Shown here: positions 27,410-30,776 of the stretch, in pieces | How the letters are laid out: every line of letters begins with the position of its first letter | How positions within the stretch are numbered: position 1 is the first letter of the stretch | NCBI GenBank assembly: GCA_028819475.1 | Contig: JAPPLJ010000048.1 | Location: forward strand, 17,905 to 81,904 | Reading direction: 5' to 3' | DNA: 64,000 bases | Source: Rhodospirillaceae bacterium | Lineage (GTDB): Bacteria > Pseudomonadota > Alphaproteobacteria > Bin65 | Notes under the pieces: model-generated | What the model was told of the DNA's origin: nothing | What the model saw: the letters and a program-made list of their open reading frames with translations, nothing else | Database searches by the model: none | Position numbers and translations under genes: made by a program

Positions 27410-27709
27410 TCAGTTCAGCCGGAGCACGCCGTCGACGAAGCGGAATTCCGCCGGCCGGACCAGCTGCCGGGACGCGACGCGCACGACATGCAGCGCGCCC
27501 TCCAGATTCTCCTCCCAGAAGCACAGGAACCGGCCCAGCTTCGGGAAGCGCGGCGCGATGTCCAGGCCCTGCCAGACATAGGTCTGCAACAGGGCGGGAT
27601 GATCGGGCAGGCGGTAGATGATCTCGGCGGTGGTCAGCCGGTGCCCCTGCAACTGTCGCAGCAGGCCCGGCGCGGCCGGCGGGCTGCGCGATCCCAGTTC
27701 GGTGCCCAT
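27410..27709 (-). CDS. usg: Usg family protein
   Basis: GHRLTTAEIIYRLPDHPALLQTYVWQ..D.APRFP.L..FL.FWE.NLEG.LH.V. Confidence 0.88.
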   Translation of the reverse strand: MGTELGSRSPPAAPGLLRQLQGHRLTTAEIIYRLPDHPALLQTYVWQGLDIAPRFPKLGRFLCFWEENLEGALHVVRVASRQLVRPAEFRFVDGVLRLN

Positions 27710-27781: not shown

Positions 27782-27808
27782 TTAGCAGCGTTCCGATGGG
27801 AGTGCTGA
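27782..27808. promoter_or_regulatory. CIRCE-like element (HrcA operator) upstream of usg
   Basis: TTAGCAGCG-N9-GAGTGCTGA versus consensus TTAGCACTC-N9-GAGTGCTAA; exact 9-nt spacer, 4 mismatches. Confidence 0.65.
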
Positions 27809-27973
27809 TAGTGCGCGAGAGCGCTCCTCCCGAAGCAAAGATTAAGGACACTATGTTAGGATGATGCCCAATCGTTCAGTTTGCAGGTAGGCTCACGATA
27901 CTCGGTTGCAGTAGCAGATCGTCATCCAATGGGCGTTGAGCCGGTTATCTGCAACGGGCCGTCAGATCAAGTA

Positions 27974-28432
27974 TCAAGCGTTAGGTAGCGCATTACCGTC
28001 CTTCAAATAAAATTCTATATCTTCAATCGTTAATTGTCGGTGTTCAATTCCATCACACATCTCGAATTCATCGTCGCTCACTTCTTTGAACATTCGACTA
28101 GTTTGTCCTTTTGTCATGTCGTAGACGTTTATGTGGCATTCGTCGCCCGTTGATGATGGCTCACGGGTGAATCTTGCGTTTTCCGGAAATTCGGATGCTG
28201 GTATGCGCCAGAAAATGACGGGATGTCCGGAGATGGCCGGGTAGTAATAACGACCAATGTGTTCGCACTCGGATCCGCTTCGCTCTCTGGCACACCGTGT
28301 GTCGATGACCGATACGGCGCTCGTAGCAGAAGACCTCTGGAATACCATACTCTTAAATCTTTGCTCTCGTTGGCTAAAATGTTTTGGGTGAATAAGTCTG
28401 ATAACTTCATCGACTTCCACGACATCCTCCAA
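27974..28432 (-). CDS. AT-rich hypothetical protein, putative ART/RES-like fold toxin (start TTG 28432 or GTG 28420)
   Basis: 152 aa: VIRLIHP...SMVF...AVSVI...PSSTGDECHINV (R...SV...H pattern). GGAGG lies 5 nt before GTG 28420. Confidence 0.6.
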   Translation of the reverse strand: MEDVVEVDEVIRLIHPKHFSQREQRFKSMVFQRSSATSAVSVIDTRCARERSGSECEHIGRYYYPAISGHPVIFWRIPASEFPENARFTREPSSTGDECHINVYDMTKGQTSRMFKEVSDDEFEMCDGIEHRQLTIEDIEFYLKDGNALPNA

Positions 28433-28794
28433 AGATAATCTGTTAGTTCGTCAAACAGGATACCGTCTTTTTCGAATCTAGTATCTTGCTCAACTCTATG
28501 CTCAATTTCCAAATTACCATCGGCACTGCAAAATATCTCGAGAATGTCATCGGCATAGTATCCAGATACCAAAATACCTCCGCTAACATCAGGAAAAACT
28601 TCAATTTCATCCGCGTTATTTCTGACAAGTAGTGAGCTGATGGAGCGTGCCAAATTTACTGCAGTTTGCGTTGCGGCGCGTCCATCGCCATAGTGCCAAC
28701 CATCAGCCAAATCCAAAAATGACAAAATCCGACGCGAAATAAAGTCGTCTGTAGGGTCGGAGAAGTTCACGACTCGGTACAGTGAGGGCAACAA
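28129..28794 (-). CDS. AT-rich hypothetical protein with L..L.DGW.YG and P...GG motifs and a long S/T/P-rich tail overlapping the next gene
   Basis: 221 aa: RILSFLDLADGWHYGDG...EVFPDVSGGILVS...LEIFCSADGNLEI. Last 101 codons overlap ORF 27974..28432. Confidence 0.6.
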   Translation of the reverse strand: MLPSLYRVVNFSDPTDDFISRRILSFLDLADGWHYGDGRAATQTAVNLARSISSLLVRNNADEIEVFPDVSGGILVSGYYADDILEIFCSADGNLEIEHRVEQDTRFEKDGILFDELTDYLWRMSWKSMKLSDLFTQNILANESKDLRVWYSRGLLLRAPYRSSTHGVPESEADPSANTLVVITTRPSPDIPSFSGAYQHPNFRKTQDSPVSHHQRATNAT

Positions 28795-28796
28795 CT

Positions 28797-29153
28797 CTAT
28801 TCCTTCTCTCTTAAAGATTGATTTTGAATTTCTAAAAGTGCGGGCCGAATATCATGCATCGTCATAATATTATGGTCAGTCGCTTTTTCAAAATCGGCAA
28901 CAGCTCGACTCAATTCAGCTGCAAATGTCTTTGCTGTTGTGAACGACATATGGAGTGCGCACAACCGTTCACCATTTCGCATAAGAAGCGCGGTCATGTC
29001 TGATAGAGAAAGCCCAATTTCAACACCATTGAAATAGATTGCTTGAAGCGCAGTATCTGTTGCGGTGGAAGGTGGCGTAGAGTACGCTGAGCCGGTTTCA
29101 ACAGTTTCGTCTAATCCCGTTTCACTCATGCGTAGGGCTCTTTCGATATTCAA
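28797..29153 (-). CDS. DUF3467-like small protein
   Basis: IYFNGVEIGLSLSDMTALL...LHMSFTTAKTFAAELSRAVADFE resembles the DUF3467 pattern (Y.N...+...D...MS...AK.+...L). Ends 2 nt before the next start. Confidence 0.55.
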   Translation of the reverse strand: MNIERALRMSETGLDETVETGSAYSTPPSTATDTALQAIYFNGVEIGLSLSDMTALLMRNGERLCALHMSFTTAKTFAAELSRAVADFEKATDHNIMTMHDIRPALLEIQNQSLREKE

Positions 29154-29206
29154 ATGACGCGAATTGCAACTCAGTCGCGCTGAGATGCTGGCGGCGAATT
29201 GGTGTC

Positions 29207-29238
29207 AGTCATCATCGCCTTCCAAGGCGATGATGACT
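29207..29238. repeat. Perfect 15-bp inverted repeat (terminator or operator)
   Basis: AGTCATCATCGCCTT-CC-AAGGCGATGATGACT, between the boxB stop and the AT-rich cassette. Confidence 0.8.
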
Positions 29239-29348
29239 TGCTAGAGGAGAGAAGGGCAGCCAAAACCAGTGTGTCAAGGTAAACATATCATGAATCTTTC
29301 TGCATTTCTACCCCAATTTAGCGAATAAAGAGTCCTGCCGGCCGCCGG

Positions 29349-30776
29349 CTAAAGCCTCACATACTCATAGTCGACCGGGTTGTTGTTGATGCCGCGGTCG
29401 GGCGGGGCAATCCAGCCGGCCATCCGGCCCGGCGCGGTCACCTGCTTCATCAGGCTCTTGATGTGGGTCCGGTCGGCCTCCGACGGGATCCAGTCGTTTA
29501 TCCGGCTTTCGTAGGCCTCTTTCGAGACCGGCGTGCCGTCGGGCGCGAAATGGAAGCCGGCGAAGGGGCCGACCGTTCGGCGGAAGCGGTCCGACGGCAG
29601 GCTGAATTGGAGATCGACCCCGGCCTTCCGGATCATCCGGTTCCAGCGCGTGATGCCGATATCGCAGTCATTGGAATAGCCCTTGCGGGCGACCAGGTTC
29701 ATGGCGTTGCGCGTCGGGATTTCGATTTCCCGCACGCCGGCGCCGTCCTCGGTCGGCTCCTCGATGCGGTAGAGCGTGTCGGCTTCCAGATGGTCCTCGA
29801 ACCGGTCCTCGTCCGGCCGGCCCTTGAGGCCGTTGGCGAAATAGGCCGCGGCGTTGGTCGAGCGGTCGGCGCCGAACAGGTCGAGGGAGGAGGAGTACCA
29901 GTAGTTGATGTATTTCTGGACCAGGCCGAGATCGATCGCGCCGTGGTCGCGGATGCGCTGCGGGTCGTCGGTGTTCAACTCCTGCATGACCTCCAGCGCC
30001 CGCCGGATGACCCGGCCGAGGCCGGTCTCGCCGACGAACATGTGGTGGGCTTCCTCGGTCAGCATGAAGCGGCAGGTGCGCGACAGCGGATCGAAGGCGC
30101 TCTCGGCCAGCATCTTGAGCTGGAACTTGCCGTCCCGGTCGGTGAAGTAGGTGAAGCTGAAGAACGACATCCAGTCGTCGATCGGCTCGTTGAAGGTCGT
30201 CAGGATGCGCGGGTTGTTGACGTCGCCGGAATGGCGCTCCAGCAGGTCTTCGGCCTCCTCGCGTCCGTCGCGGCCGAAATGGGCGTGCAGCAGGTAAACC
30301 ATGGCCCAGAGGTGCCGGCCTTCCTCGACGTTGACCTGGAACAGGTTGCGCATGTCGTAGAGCGACGGGCAGGTGTAGGCGAGCATGCGCTGCTGTTCGA
30401 CTGAAGCAGGCTCGGTATCGCCCTGGGTGACGATCAGGCGGCGCAGATCGGAGCGGAACTCGCCCGGCACCTGCTGCCACACCGGCTGGCCGAAACTGTC
30501 GCCGAAGCCGATGGTGCGGTCCTCCGTCTTGTCGGCCAGGAAGATGCCCCAGCGGTAGTCCGGCATCTTGACGTGGCCGTAGGTCGCCCAGCCCTTGGCG
30601 TCGACCGAGGTCGCCGTGCGCAGGTAGACGTCCCGGGCCTGGAAATCGCCGTCCGGGCCCATCTCGCCCCACCAGTTCAGGAAGGCAGGCTGCCAGCGCT
30701 CCAGCGCGCGCTGGAGCTGGCGGTCGGCGCTCAGGTCGACGTTGTTGGGAATCTTCTCGGCGTAGTTGATCGACAT
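29349..30776 (-). CDS. boxB: Benzoyl-CoA 2,3-epoxidase subunit B
   Basis: INYAEKIPNNV, LRRLIVTQGDTEPASVEQQ, VNVEEGRHLWAM and MLTEEAHHM (di-iron EExH motifs). Confidence 0.97.
   Translation of the reverse strand: MSINYAEKIPNNVDLSADRQLQRALERWQPAFLNWWGEMGPDGDFQARDVYLRTATSVDAKGWATYGHVKMPDYRWGIFLADKTEDRTIGFGDSFGQPVWQQVPGEFRSDLRRLIVTQGDTEPASVEQQRMLAYTCPSLYDMRNLFQVNVEEGRHLWAMVYLLHAHFGRDGREEAEDLLERHSGDVNNPRILTTFNEPIDDWMSFFSFTYFTDRDGKFQLKMLAESAFDPLSRTCRFMLTEEAHHMFVGETGLGRVIRRALEVMQELNTDDPQRIRDHGAIDLGLVQKYINYWYSSSLDLFGADRSTNAAAYFANGLKGRPDEDRFEDHLEADTLYRIEEPTEDGAGVREIEIPTRNAMNLVARKGYSNDCDIGITRWNRMIRKAGVDLQFSLPSDRFRRTVGPFAGFHFAPDGTPVSKEAYESRINDWIPSEADRTHIKSLMKQVTAPGRMAGWIAPPDRGINNNPVDYEYVRL

What the first reader, a model, noticed from the sequence alone, without database searches (positions are those of the whole stretch)
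28129..28432. 101-codon out-of-frame overlap between putative antitoxin tail and putative toxin
Seen: the 221 aa ORF continues 304 nt into the 152 aa ORF on the same strand in a different frame, with no stop, in AT-rich DNA where stops are common. A rough estimate of 5% stop chance per codon gives under 1% for such a run. The overlapping tail is S/T/P-rich and looks unstructured, like chaperone-addiction (ChAD) tails. Both frames share the junction TTTGGAGGATGTCGTG. Recalled, to be verified: a long out-of-frame overlap was reported for the E. coli anti-phage system PD-T4-10. Inference: the overlap is selected, locking toxin and antitoxin together, or one product arises by frameshifting.
Basis: partly seen in the sequence, partly recalled or inferred. 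Interest (0 to 1): 0.7.

Follow-up and report, generated by a model that had tools for sequence, protein, structure and literature searches.

The report
Conserved long two-frame gene overlap
About 300 bases in a small, horizontally acquired three-gene cassette are read in two frames, as the floppy tail of one protein and the folded front half of the next, and all 16 intact related loci found keep this overlap, which is several times longer than same-direction bacterial overlaps usually accepted as real.

Summary
On the minus strand, ORF2 (28129-28794, 221 aa) runs 304 nt into ORF3. The overlap is 292 nt if ORF3 starts at its better-supported GTG (28420), which follows a GGAGG. ORF3 lies in the -1 frame of ORF2.

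The overlap is selected rather than accidental.
- All 16 intact related loci (Alpha- and Gammaproteobacteria, metagenomes, one viral contig) keep the same frame relation, with 200-304 nt of overlap.
- The ORF2 frame has no stop for 66-100 codons in each of the 15 loci measured. The same frame carries 4-7% stops elsewhere in the cassette.
- Four-fold sites change half as often inside the overlap (20/80 vs 115/240).
- About 85-90% of 152 representative ORF2 homologues carry the tail; the family has about 1,900 clusters.

The substitution pattern and the structure model say ORF3 is the dominant, folded frame. The ORF2 tail is a disordered, basic, S/T/P-rich extension.

Programmed frameshifting is not supported: there is no conserved slippery site, and ORF3 has its own start.

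The toxin/antitoxin roles and the ChAD analogy are untested. No protein matches a known family, and ORF1 is not detectably SecB-like.

Best reading: a real dual-coding overlap in an undescribed, mobile, TA- or defence-like cassette.

The parts
27809..29336 (.). Low-GC island (1,528 nt, 46% GC) that carries the three-gene cassette. It was inserted between a usg-like gene and boxB.
   Evidence: Composition profile. The same-genus genomes G010 and G002 have 90 nt and 266 nt of unrelated GC-rich filler between the same flanks, which are 95-97% identical.
28797..29153 (-). ORF1, 118 aa. Small conserved protein with the core YFNG.EIGLSLSD...LHMSFTTAKTLA..L..A...FE. Distantly DUF3467-like. Role unknown.
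   Evidence: One of 8 members hits Pfam DUF3467 at E=3e-4. No similarity to SecB.
28129..28794 (-). ORF2, 221 aa. A folded acidic N-domain followed by a disordered basic tail.
   Evidence: About 1,910 family clusters at E<=1e-3.
28420..28758 (-). ORF2 N-domain (residues ~13-125). Layout alpha-alpha-beta5-alpha, with motifs DGWHYGEG and FPDVSGGILVSGY.
   Evidence: AlphaFold2 pLDDT ~90 over this stretch. Weak similarity to the C-terminal region of PADLOC candidate PDC-M32A, best E 2.3e-5.
28129..28420 (-). Dual-coding segment of 292 nt (304 nt if ORF3 started at TTG 28432). It encodes ORF2 tail residues 126-221 in one frame and ORF3 residues 1-97 in the -1 frame.
27974..28420 (-). ORF3, 148 aa from GTG 28420 (152 aa from TTG 28432). 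Folded protein with invariant His/Cys motifs: LHP.H, RF.S.AF, C...EC.H, GD.CH.N, .CDG.
   Evidence: AF2 model pLDDT 78.6, pTM 0.77. No PDB or BFVD fold match and no family match.
28426..28430 (-). GGAGG Shine-Dalgarno motif, 5 nt upstream of ORF3's GTG and inside ORF2 codons 122-124.
   Evidence: Sequence. An SD-like motif precedes the aligned start codon in 10 of 15 loci.
29207..29238 (.). Perfect 15+15 nt palindrome (AGTCATCATCGCCTT / AAGGCGATGATGACT) in the leader, 54 nt upstream of ORF1. It could be an operator or a stem-loop. It is not conserved in other loci.

Best explanation
This is a genuine, selected dual-coding overlap inside a small, horizontally moving three-gene cassette (ORF1-ORF2-ORF3) of an undescribed family.

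Shown here:
- ORF3 is a folded ~145-aa protein, and its 5' two-thirds is the dominant reading frame of the shared DNA.
- ORF3 has its own Shine-Dalgarno sequence and start codon inside ORF2.
- ORF2 is a folded ~125-aa domain whose reading frame continues for 66-101 further codons in the +1 frame of ORF3.
- That continuation gives a disordered, basic, S/T/P-rich tail.
- Family-wide selection keeps the tail frame free of stops and moderately constrains its sequence.

Inferred, not shown:
- The tail arose by overprinting: ORF2 lost its stop and extended into ORF3.
- Both products are made from one mRNA by independent initiation.
- The cassette works like a toxin-antitoxin or abortive-infection module. 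ORF3 would be the effector. ORF2 would be its neutraliser, using the flexible tail as the ORF3-binding or stability-controlling element.
- Because the neutraliser's tail is written inside the effector gene, the two cannot be separated by recombination or deletion. ORF2-translating ribosomes also run over ORF3's start site and would hold ORF3 output below ORF2 output.
For: 1. Conserved architecture. All 16 intact loci keep ORF3 in the -1 frame of ORF2 with 200-304 nt of overlap. The loci are the window, L001-L007, L009-L012, L016, L018, L020 and L022.
2. Stop avoidance. In 15 loci there are 0 stops in 1,285 tail-frame codons. The +1 frame of ORF1, the ORF2 N-domain and the ORF3 C-part carries 4.2-6.8% stops. 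The third frame of the overlap carries 5.0%.
3. Randomisation. Synonymous redrawing of ORF3 leaves the ORF2 frame open in 0.7-31% of trials per locus. The product of P(open for the first 60 codons) over 13 lineages is ~1e-11.
4. Suppressed synonymous change. ORF3 third positions changed at 33/167 sites in the overlap vs 60/125 outside (p=5e-7). Four-fold sites changed at 20/80 vs 115/240 in three independent close pairs (p=4e-4).
5. Extra tail conservation. ORF2-frame identity exceeds the simulated value by 0.061 in the overlap, vs 0.018-0.026 in control regions.
6. ORF3 is really coding in the overlap. Position 3 is the most variable position there. Amino-acid identity is higher than in its C-part. 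The model is confident over this stretch.
7. The tail is general in the family. Of 152 representative ORF2 homologues, 123 have a tail of at least 55 aa and 135 match a tail HMM.
8. The tail is disordered and compositionally biased.
9. ORF3 has its own start, and no slippery site is conserved.
10. The cassette is mobile and its neighbours are TA- or defence-like. It is an island absent from sister species. It sits next to PIN/PhdYeFM pairs, TIR/DruA genes and transposases, and it occurs on a viral contig.
Against: - There is no expression, toxicity or binding evidence.
- None of the three proteins matches a known toxin, antitoxin, chaperone or DNA-binding family.
- At deep divergence the extra synonymous conservation is weak (0.44 vs 0.36, p=0.02).
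- Within the overlap the most variable position is ORF2's codon position 2. The tail sequence is therefore only loosely constrained.
- Tail length varies from 66 to 101 codons.
- Some homologues lack the tail. Eight of 152 have a tail under 30 aa and three are fused to ORF3.
- The statistics rest on 15 loci that are not fully independent.
Confidence: 0.6

Rival explanations
1. The act of translation is selected, not the peptide. Ribosomes reading ORF2 must continue across ORF3's initiation region and 5' half in order to set ORF3 expression or mRNA stability. They could do this by occluding or unmasking its Shine-Dalgarno site, or by protecting the mRNA from Rho or RNases. The tail peptide itself would have no function.
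For: - The tail sequence is weakly constrained at deep divergence.
- The most variable position in the overlap is ORF2's codon position 2.
- Tail length varies from 66 to 101 codons.
- ORF3's SD and start codon lie inside ORF2.
Against: - Occluding a start site needs only a few codons beyond it, not 66 or more.
- Four-fold sites are constrained across the whole overlap.
- The ORF2-frame sequence is conserved 2-3 times more than control frames.
- In the fused variant L015 the tail frame stays open for 97 codons and has its own ATG.
Confidence: 0.17
2. The tail is a tolerated, functionless read-through. ORF2's real product is the N-domain, and the open frame behind it is a by-product of ORF3's sequence and codon choice.
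For: - The tail is disordered and evolves fast.
- Truncated forms exist. Eight of 152 homologues have a tail under 30 aa, and L021 has one nonsense codon in the tail.
- Per-locus P(open) reaches 0.3 in the more GC-rich loci.
Against: - The open frame is kept in every intact locus, including lineages with 40-60% protein identity. The joint probability is ~1e-11.
- The same frame accumulates 4-7% stops immediately after ORF2's stop.
- Synonymous change is suppressed in the overlap.
- The two truncated loci that were examined at the DNA level are decaying. In L021 ORF1 is truncated. In L023 ORF3 is frameshifted twice.
Confidence: 0.1
3. Programmed -1 ribosomal frameshifting joins the ORF2 N-domain to ORF3, as in IS3 orfAB or dnaX. 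The long zero-frame tail would be incidental.
For: - ORF3 is in the -1 frame in every locus.
- Single-frame N-domain-ORF3 fusion proteins exist in databases: P0082, P0056 and P0021.
Against: - No X_XXY_YYZ heptamer is conserved near the start of the overlap. There are isolated, non-homologous hits in 3 of 15 loci.
- ORF3 has an aligned start codon in all 15 loci, with an SD-like motif in 10.
- The three fusions join at three different positions, as sporadic indels would. L015 differs from its relative L016 by a 2-nt deletion.
- Frameshifting does not explain a zero-frame tail of 66 or more codons.
Confidence: 0.04
4. The overlap is real, but the cassette is not a toxin-antitoxin or defence module. 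The three proteins could, for example, form a small enzyme or metal-binding complex with another role.
For: - There is no homology to any toxin, antitoxin or defence family beyond a weak domain match to an untested PADLOC candidate.
- No DNA-binding domain was detected in ORF1 or ORF2.
- ORF3's conserved Cys and His residues could simply bind a metal.
Against: - The cassette is ~1.5 kb, low in GC and patchily distributed. It is in 4 of 61 relatives and 4 of 401 genomes of the phylum.
- It is inserted at unrelated sites.
- It is found beside TA pairs, defence genes and transposases, and on a viral contig.
- This behaviour is typical of addiction or defence modules.
Confidence: 0.3

Closest known systems
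Phage lambda Rz/Rz1, and the overprinted genes of phiX174-type phages (from my own knowledge)
   Same: Two proteins are read from the same strand in different frames. Each has its own start. Both are needed for one function. The newer frame encodes a short, Pro/Ser-rich, poorly structured product.
   Different: Rz1 is wholly nested inside Rz, and those pairs are viral. Here the 3' part of one gene overlaps the 5' two-thirds of the next gene, in a chromosomal cassette spread across Proteobacteria. The proteins are unrelated to Rz or Rz1.
PD-T4-10 of E. coli (Vassallo et al. 2022, PMC9519451)
   Same: A small cassette of proteins with no predicted function and 'two overlapping ORFs'. The downstream product is toxic and the upstream one neutralises it. 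It gives abortive-infection defence.
   Different: PD-T4-10 has two genes, not three. No PADLOC PD-T4-10 model matches any of the three proteins here. The overlap length of PD-T4-10 was not given in the text read. Toxicity and defence are untested here.
TAC (toxin-antitoxin-chaperone) systems with a ChAD tail on the antitoxin (Mycobacterium tuberculosis HigBA-SecB-like; mentioned in PMC9519451)
   Same: A three-gene module in which the middle-sized protein carries a disordered C-terminal extension.
   Different: The third gene here is DUF3467-like, not SecB-like (hhalign probability 0.3%). The gene order differs. The toxin and antitoxin families differ. In TAC systems the tail is not encoded inside the toxin gene.
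holD/rimI overlap of Enterobacteria (Palleja et al. 2008, PMC2478687)
   Same: A co-directional out-of-frame overlap judged to be real because both genes keep orthologue-consistent lengths.
   Different: That overlap is 32-56 bp. [quoted passage not shown] The overlap here is 200-304 nt.
IS3-family orfA/orfB and dnaX (-1 programmed frameshifting; from my own knowledge)
   Same: The downstream frame is -1 relative to the upstream one, and fusion proteins are conceivable.
   Different: There is no slippery heptamer. The downstream gene has its own start. The zero frame runs on for 66-101 codons.

Membership tests
Overprinted dual-coding gene pair | Both frames stay open across diverged homologues | tested here: met
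   16 of 16 intact loci. There are 0 stops in 1,285 tail-frame codons, against 4-7% elsewhere.
Overprinted dual-coding gene pair | Synonymous variation is reduced in the overlap relative to the non-overlapping parts | tested here: met
   Four-fold sites changed at 20/80 vs 115/240, p=4e-4. ORF3 position 3 changed at 33/167 vs 60/125, p=5e-7. The effect is weaker at deep divergence.
Overprinted dual-coding gene pair | Both products are actually translated | not testable with these tools
No proteomics is available.
Type II toxin-antitoxin module | Sequence or fold homology of either partner to a known toxin or antitoxin family | tested here: not met
   No hit in Pfam, NCBIfam, PHROGs, PADLOC, PDB sequences or Foldseek.
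Type II toxin-antitoxin module | One product is toxic and is neutralised by its neighbour | not testable with these tools
   This needs expression tests in a laboratory strain.
Type II toxin-antitoxin module | The antitoxin has a DNA-binding domain and autoregulates through an operator | tested here: inconclusive
   No HTH, RHH or AbrB domain was detected. There is a 30-nt palindrome upstream in the window, but it is not conserved.
TAC / ChAD system | A SecB-like chaperone gene in the operon | tested here: not met
   ORF1 profile vs SecB profile: hhalign probability 0.3%. There is no SecB Pfam hit.
TAC / ChAD system | A disordered C-terminal extension on the antitoxin | tested here: inconclusive
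   ORF2 residues 138-221 have pLDDT 31-41. Dependence on a chaperone is untested.
PD-T4-10 | Homology to PD-T4-10A or PD-T4-10B | tested here: not met
   The PADLOC scan of ORF1-3 and of 8 members each of ORF2 and ORF3 gave no PD-T4-10 hit.
PADLOC candidate PDC-M32 | A full-length match to PDC-M32A (375-384 aa) | tested here: not met
   Only the ORF2 N-domain aligns, to model positions ~258-369. The best E is 2.3e-5, in 5 of 8 members.
Programmed -1 frameshift gene (IS3 orfAB, dnaX type) | A conserved X_XXY_YYZ slippery site at the start of the overlap | tested here: not met
   None is conserved. There are isolated, non-homologous hits in 3 of 15 loci.
Programmed -1 frameshift gene (IS3 orfAB, dnaX type) | The downstream frame lacks its own initiation signals | tested here: not met
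   An aligned ATG, GTG or TTG is present in all 15 loci, with an SD-like motif in 10.
Pfam DUF3467 (ORF1) | A score above the Pfam gathering threshold | tested here: inconclusive
   One of 8 members matches at E=3e-4 and the window's ORF1 gives no hit. A genome search with PF11950 found nothing in G000.

The most novel reading that the evidence does not exclude
ORF2-ORF3 would be a new toxin-antitoxin or anti-phage family with about 1,900 sequence clusters. In it, the neutraliser's working part is a disordered tail of 66-101 residues written inside the effector's own coding sequence in another frame.

This would be a genetic interlock. Deletion, recombination or nonsense mutation could not remove the neutraliser's tail without also hitting the effector, and translation of the two would be mechanically coupled. 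It would be the longest family-wide, same-strand dual-coding overlap documented in cellular prokaryotic genes. It would also be a clear case of a functional disordered region born by overprinting.
Probability: 0.3. Interest if true: 0.85.

Novelty: new variant of a known kind. Interest (0 to 1): 0.7.

Why it matters
- It runs against a long-standing view. The 2008 survey of 338 genomes found no real co-directional overlap among 715 longer than 60 bp. The longest it accepted was 56 bp (PMC2478687). Here a 200-304 nt overlap passes that survey's own test: both genes keep orthologue-consistent lengths. It also passes independent tests of two-frame constraint, across a family of roughly 1,900 clusters.
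- It shows a blind spot in annotation. Gene callers dropped ORF3 entirely (L001, L002, L018) or truncated it to 72 or 48 aa (L003, L016), so public protein databases barely contain it.
- If the tail is the neutralising part of a toxin-antitoxin-like pair, the overlap gives a simple physical reason why the two genes cannot be uncoupled. It would also be a tractable model for how a functional disordered region arises by overprinting.
- The three proteins have no known family or fold relatives. The cassette is therefore a candidate new mobile addiction or defence module.

Tried and rejected
- Family scans. Pfam, NCBIfam, PHROGs and PADLOC scans of all three proteins gave nothing except a weak PDC-M32A domain match for ORF2 and one DUF3467 hit for an ORF1 homologue.
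- PDB sequence search. Profiles of ORF1, ORF2 and ORF3 against PDB sequences gave only chance-level hits.
- Fold search. Foldseek of the ORF3 model against PDB and BFVD, and of the ORF2 model against PDB, gave no match at E<=0.001. The best TM-scores were 0.2-0.4.
- ORF3 in protein databases. A protein-database search with ORF3 found nothing, because gene callers omit it. The metagenome contigs pattern scan found no relative.
- SecB-like chaperone idea for ORF1: rejected at the sequence level.
- Programmed frameshifting: rejected.
- ORF3 starting downstream of ORF2's stop, so that there is no real overlap: rejected. ORF3's N-terminal 66-100 residues are its best conserved and most confidently folded part, and they show a position-3-dominated substitution pattern.
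- Upstream palindrome as a family-wide operator: it is not conserved.
- Target-site duplication or repeats at the island ends: none were seen.
- Literature searches for DUF3467 and for dual-coding antitoxin overlaps returned nothing relevant.

Full report
THE OBSERVATION

On the minus strand the window carries three co-oriented ORFs inside a low-GC patch:
- ORF1, 28797-29153, 118 aa
- ORF2, 28129-28794, 221 aa
- ORF3, 27974-28432, 152 aa

ORF2 and ORF3 share 28129-28432, which is 304 nt. ORF3 is in the -1 frame of ORF2. As a result, ORF3 codon position 3 is ORF2 codon position 2. GC falls from ~0.68-0.73 in the flanks to 0.40-0.52 across 27800-29350.

ORF3 most likely starts at GTG 28420. That codon lies 5 nt after GGAGG (28426-28430) and aligns with the GTG start of the nearest homologues. 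The overlap is then 292 nt.

WHAT THE REGION IS

The cassette is a 1,528-nt island (27809-29336, 46% GC). In two same-genus genomes the flanks are 95-97% identical, but they enclose only 90 nt (G010) or 266 nt (G002) of unrelated GC-rich sequence. The flanks are a usg-like gene and boxB. The cassette was therefore gained, or swapped in, at a variable intergenic spot. I saw no terminal repeats and no target-site duplication.

The cassette is patchily distributed. It occurs in 4 of 61 relatives and in 4 of 401 genomes sampled across the phylum.

RELATED LOCI

ORF2 has database homologues of 201-220 aa whose tails align with the window's tail. ORF3 found nothing in protein databases. The reason became clear from the DNA of the homologous loci: gene callers either skip ORF3 or truncate it to the part downstream of ORF2.

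I read the DNA of 16 intact loci. They come from Alphaproteobacteria, Pseudomonadales, Azotimanducaceae, Rhodobacteraceae, ocean and other metagenomes, and one IMG/VR viral contig. Every one has ORF2 followed by ORF3 in the -1 frame with 200-304 nt of overlap.

ORF1 precedes the pair in most loci. In L011 and L023 (and in protein P0104) an unrelated ~80-aa gene takes its place.

IS THE SECOND FRAME OPEN BY CHANCE?

The evidence says no.
- In 15 loci the tail frame has 0 stops in 1,285 codons. The +1 frame has 5.4% stops in ORF1, 4.2% in the ORF2 N-domain and 6.8% in ORF3 downstream of ORF2's stop. The third frame of the overlap has 5.0%.
- I kept each ORF3 protein and redrew its synonymous codons from the locus's own usage. 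The ORF2 frame stayed open over the observed overlap in 0.7-31% of trials per locus.
- To avoid defining the test by its outcome, I also asked only for the first 60 codons. The product over 13 lineages that share at most 64% ORF3 identity is ~1e-11. The lineages are not fully independent, so this figure is an indication, not an exact probability.

IS THERE TWO-FRAME CONSTRAINT?

- In the two closest independent pairs, ORF3 third positions differ at 33 of 167 codons in the overlap and at 60 of 125 outside it (p=5e-7).
- I then restricted the count to four-fold degenerate sites and used ORF1, the ORF2 N-domain and the ORF3 C-part as controls. Three independent pairs give 20/80 vs 115/240 (p=4e-4).
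- Across deep divergences the effect is small. The same-codon pair fraction is 0.44 vs 0.36 (p=0.02).
- The ORF2-frame translation is more conserved than expected from ORF3's protein alone. The excess is 0.061. The same test gives only 0.018-0.026 on control regions.

WHICH FRAME DOMINATES?

Within the overlap, substitutions follow ORF3's frame. Its position 3 varies most, and that position is ORF2's position 2. ORF3's overlapped part is its most conserved part. It folds confidently in the model (pLDDT 78.6, pTM 0.77).

ORF2 is modelled as a well-folded N-domain (residues ~13-125, pLDDT ~90) followed by a disordered tail (residues 138-221, pLDDT 31-41). The tail has 51.6% S/T/P/R/Q/N/G, against 32.6% in the N-domain. 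The tail is basic and the N-domain is acidic.

This is the usual signature of overprinting. ORF3 is the older frame, and the ORF2 tail is a younger extension under weaker constraint.

A profile of ORF2 finds 1,910 clusters at E<=1e-3 and 1,060 at E<=1e-10. Of the 152 sequences in hand:
- 123 have at least 55 residues after the N-domain (median 84.5)
- 135 match a tail HMM
- 8 have a tail under 30 aa
- 3 are fused to ORF3

Homologues therefore do not usually stop at the ORF3 start.

I could inspect two of the shorter-tailed loci at the DNA level: P0049, one of the 8 with a tail under 30 aa, and P0041, which has a tail of intermediate length. Both are decaying. L021 has a single nonsense codon in an otherwise open tail frame, and its ORF1 is truncated. 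L023 has ORF3 broken by two frameshifts.

FRAMESHIFTING

No slippery heptamer is conserved. An aligned start codon precedes the EVIRL motif in all 15 loci, with an SD-like motif in 10.

The three fused proteins join at three different places. L015 differs from its relative L016 by a 2-nt deletion, and it still keeps a 97-codon open tail frame with its own ATG. These look like sporadic indels, real or from assembly, not like a programmed site. They do suggest that the N-domain and ORF3 work together.

FUNCTION

Function is inferred, not shown. No Pfam, NCBIfam, PHROG or PDB relative exists for any of the three proteins. There are two weak leads:
- The ORF2 N-domain weakly resembles the C-terminal region of the untested PADLOC candidate PDC-M32A (best E 2.3e-5).
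- One ORF1 homologue touches DUF3467 (E=3e-4).

ORF3 has invariant His and Cys residues but no fold match. ORF1 is not detectably SecB-like, so the ChAD/TAC analogy is only a resemblance of form.

Several features fit a toxin-antitoxin or abortive-infection-like module:
- The cassette is small and foreign in composition.
- It is patchily distributed and inserted at unrelated sites.
- Its neighbours include two PhdYeFM genes and a PIN gene, TIR_2/LD_cluster2/DruA genes and transposases.
- It occurs on a viral contig.

In such a module ORF3 would be the effector. ORF2 would be its partner, using the flexible tail for binding or stability.

PD-T4-10 is indeed described as having 'two overlapping ORFs', with a toxic downstream product (PMC9519451). 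It is not homologous to this cassette.

CONTEXT IN THE LITERATURE

Palleja et al. [quoted passage not shown] The longest they accepted was holD/rimI at up to 56 bp. A later preprint repeats that such overlaps are essentially non-existent (abstract seen). By the criterion of that survey, which is orthologue-consistent lengths of both genes, the present overlap is real and four to five times longer.

Other notes from this scan describe long overlaps in other TA-like loci. I treat them as leads only.

VERDICT

The claim that the overlap is selected is supported. Frameshifting is not supported. The toxin/antitoxin and ChAD roles are plausible but untested.

My confidence that the overlap is a selected dual-coding segment is about 0.85. 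My confidence in the whole best explanation, including the TA-like mechanism, is about 0.6.

Noticed in passing
window 29207-29238: Perfect 15+15-nt palindrome (AGTCATCATCGCCTT / AAGGCGATGATGACT), 54 nt upstream of ORF1. L016 has an unrelated 21+21-nt palindrome 100 nt upstream of its ORF1. The other loci have none. It may be a locus-specific operator or insulator.
   Followed up: partly
L001 1830-2276; L002 5336-5782; L003 5387-5824; L016 940-1374; L018 2887-3309: Public gene calls omit ORF3 (L001, L002, L018) or cut it down to the 72- or 48-aa piece downstream of ORF2 (L003, L016). ORF1 is also missed in L001 and L002. The family is therefore nearly invisible in protein databases.
   Followed up: yes
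L015 805-1620 and 1181-1474; proteins P0082, P0056, P0021: Three database proteins are in-frame fusions of the ORF2 N-domain with ORF3, and they join at three different points. In L015 a 2-nt deletion relative to L016 causes the fusion. The orphaned tail frame there stays open for 97 codons and has its own ATG.
   Followed up: partly
L011 (reverse complement) 817-1071; L023 2257-2496; protein P0104: In some loci an unrelated ~80-aa gene replaces ORF1 (motif ...P.T.K..TGT..DIV......L.L.DGT..RIK.SI..V..LD...). In P0104 this gene is fused to the ORF2 N-domain. The upstream partner is therefore exchangeable, while the ORF2-ORF3 pair is constant.
   Followed up: no
L023 1-1276 and 4442-5474; L021 3339-4377: Neighbours of two cassettes are defence or TA genes. 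L023 has TIR_2, LD_cluster2 and DruA/transposase genes. L021 has a PIN gene and two PhdYeFM genes. Both of these cassettes are themselves degenerate.
   Followed up: no
L020 3018-4059 (IMGVR_UViG_3300037420_001535): A complete ORF1-ORF2-ORF3 cassette with a 247-nt overlap lies on a 14-kb contig that IMG/VR classes as viral.
   Followed up: no
window 27974-28420 (ORF3): Invariant His and Cys residues are spread along ORF3. In the numbering of alignment A5 they are H11, H14, C43, C52, H54, C95, H96 and C122. In the model C43 sits at the start of a helix and H96 at the start of a strand. This suggests a thiol/His active site or a metal site, but no fold relative was found.
   Followed up: partly
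window 27410-27709 (minus strand): A Usg-like protein gene (PF06233, E=3e-36) directly flanks the island. boxB (29349-30776) flanks the other side.
   Followed up: no
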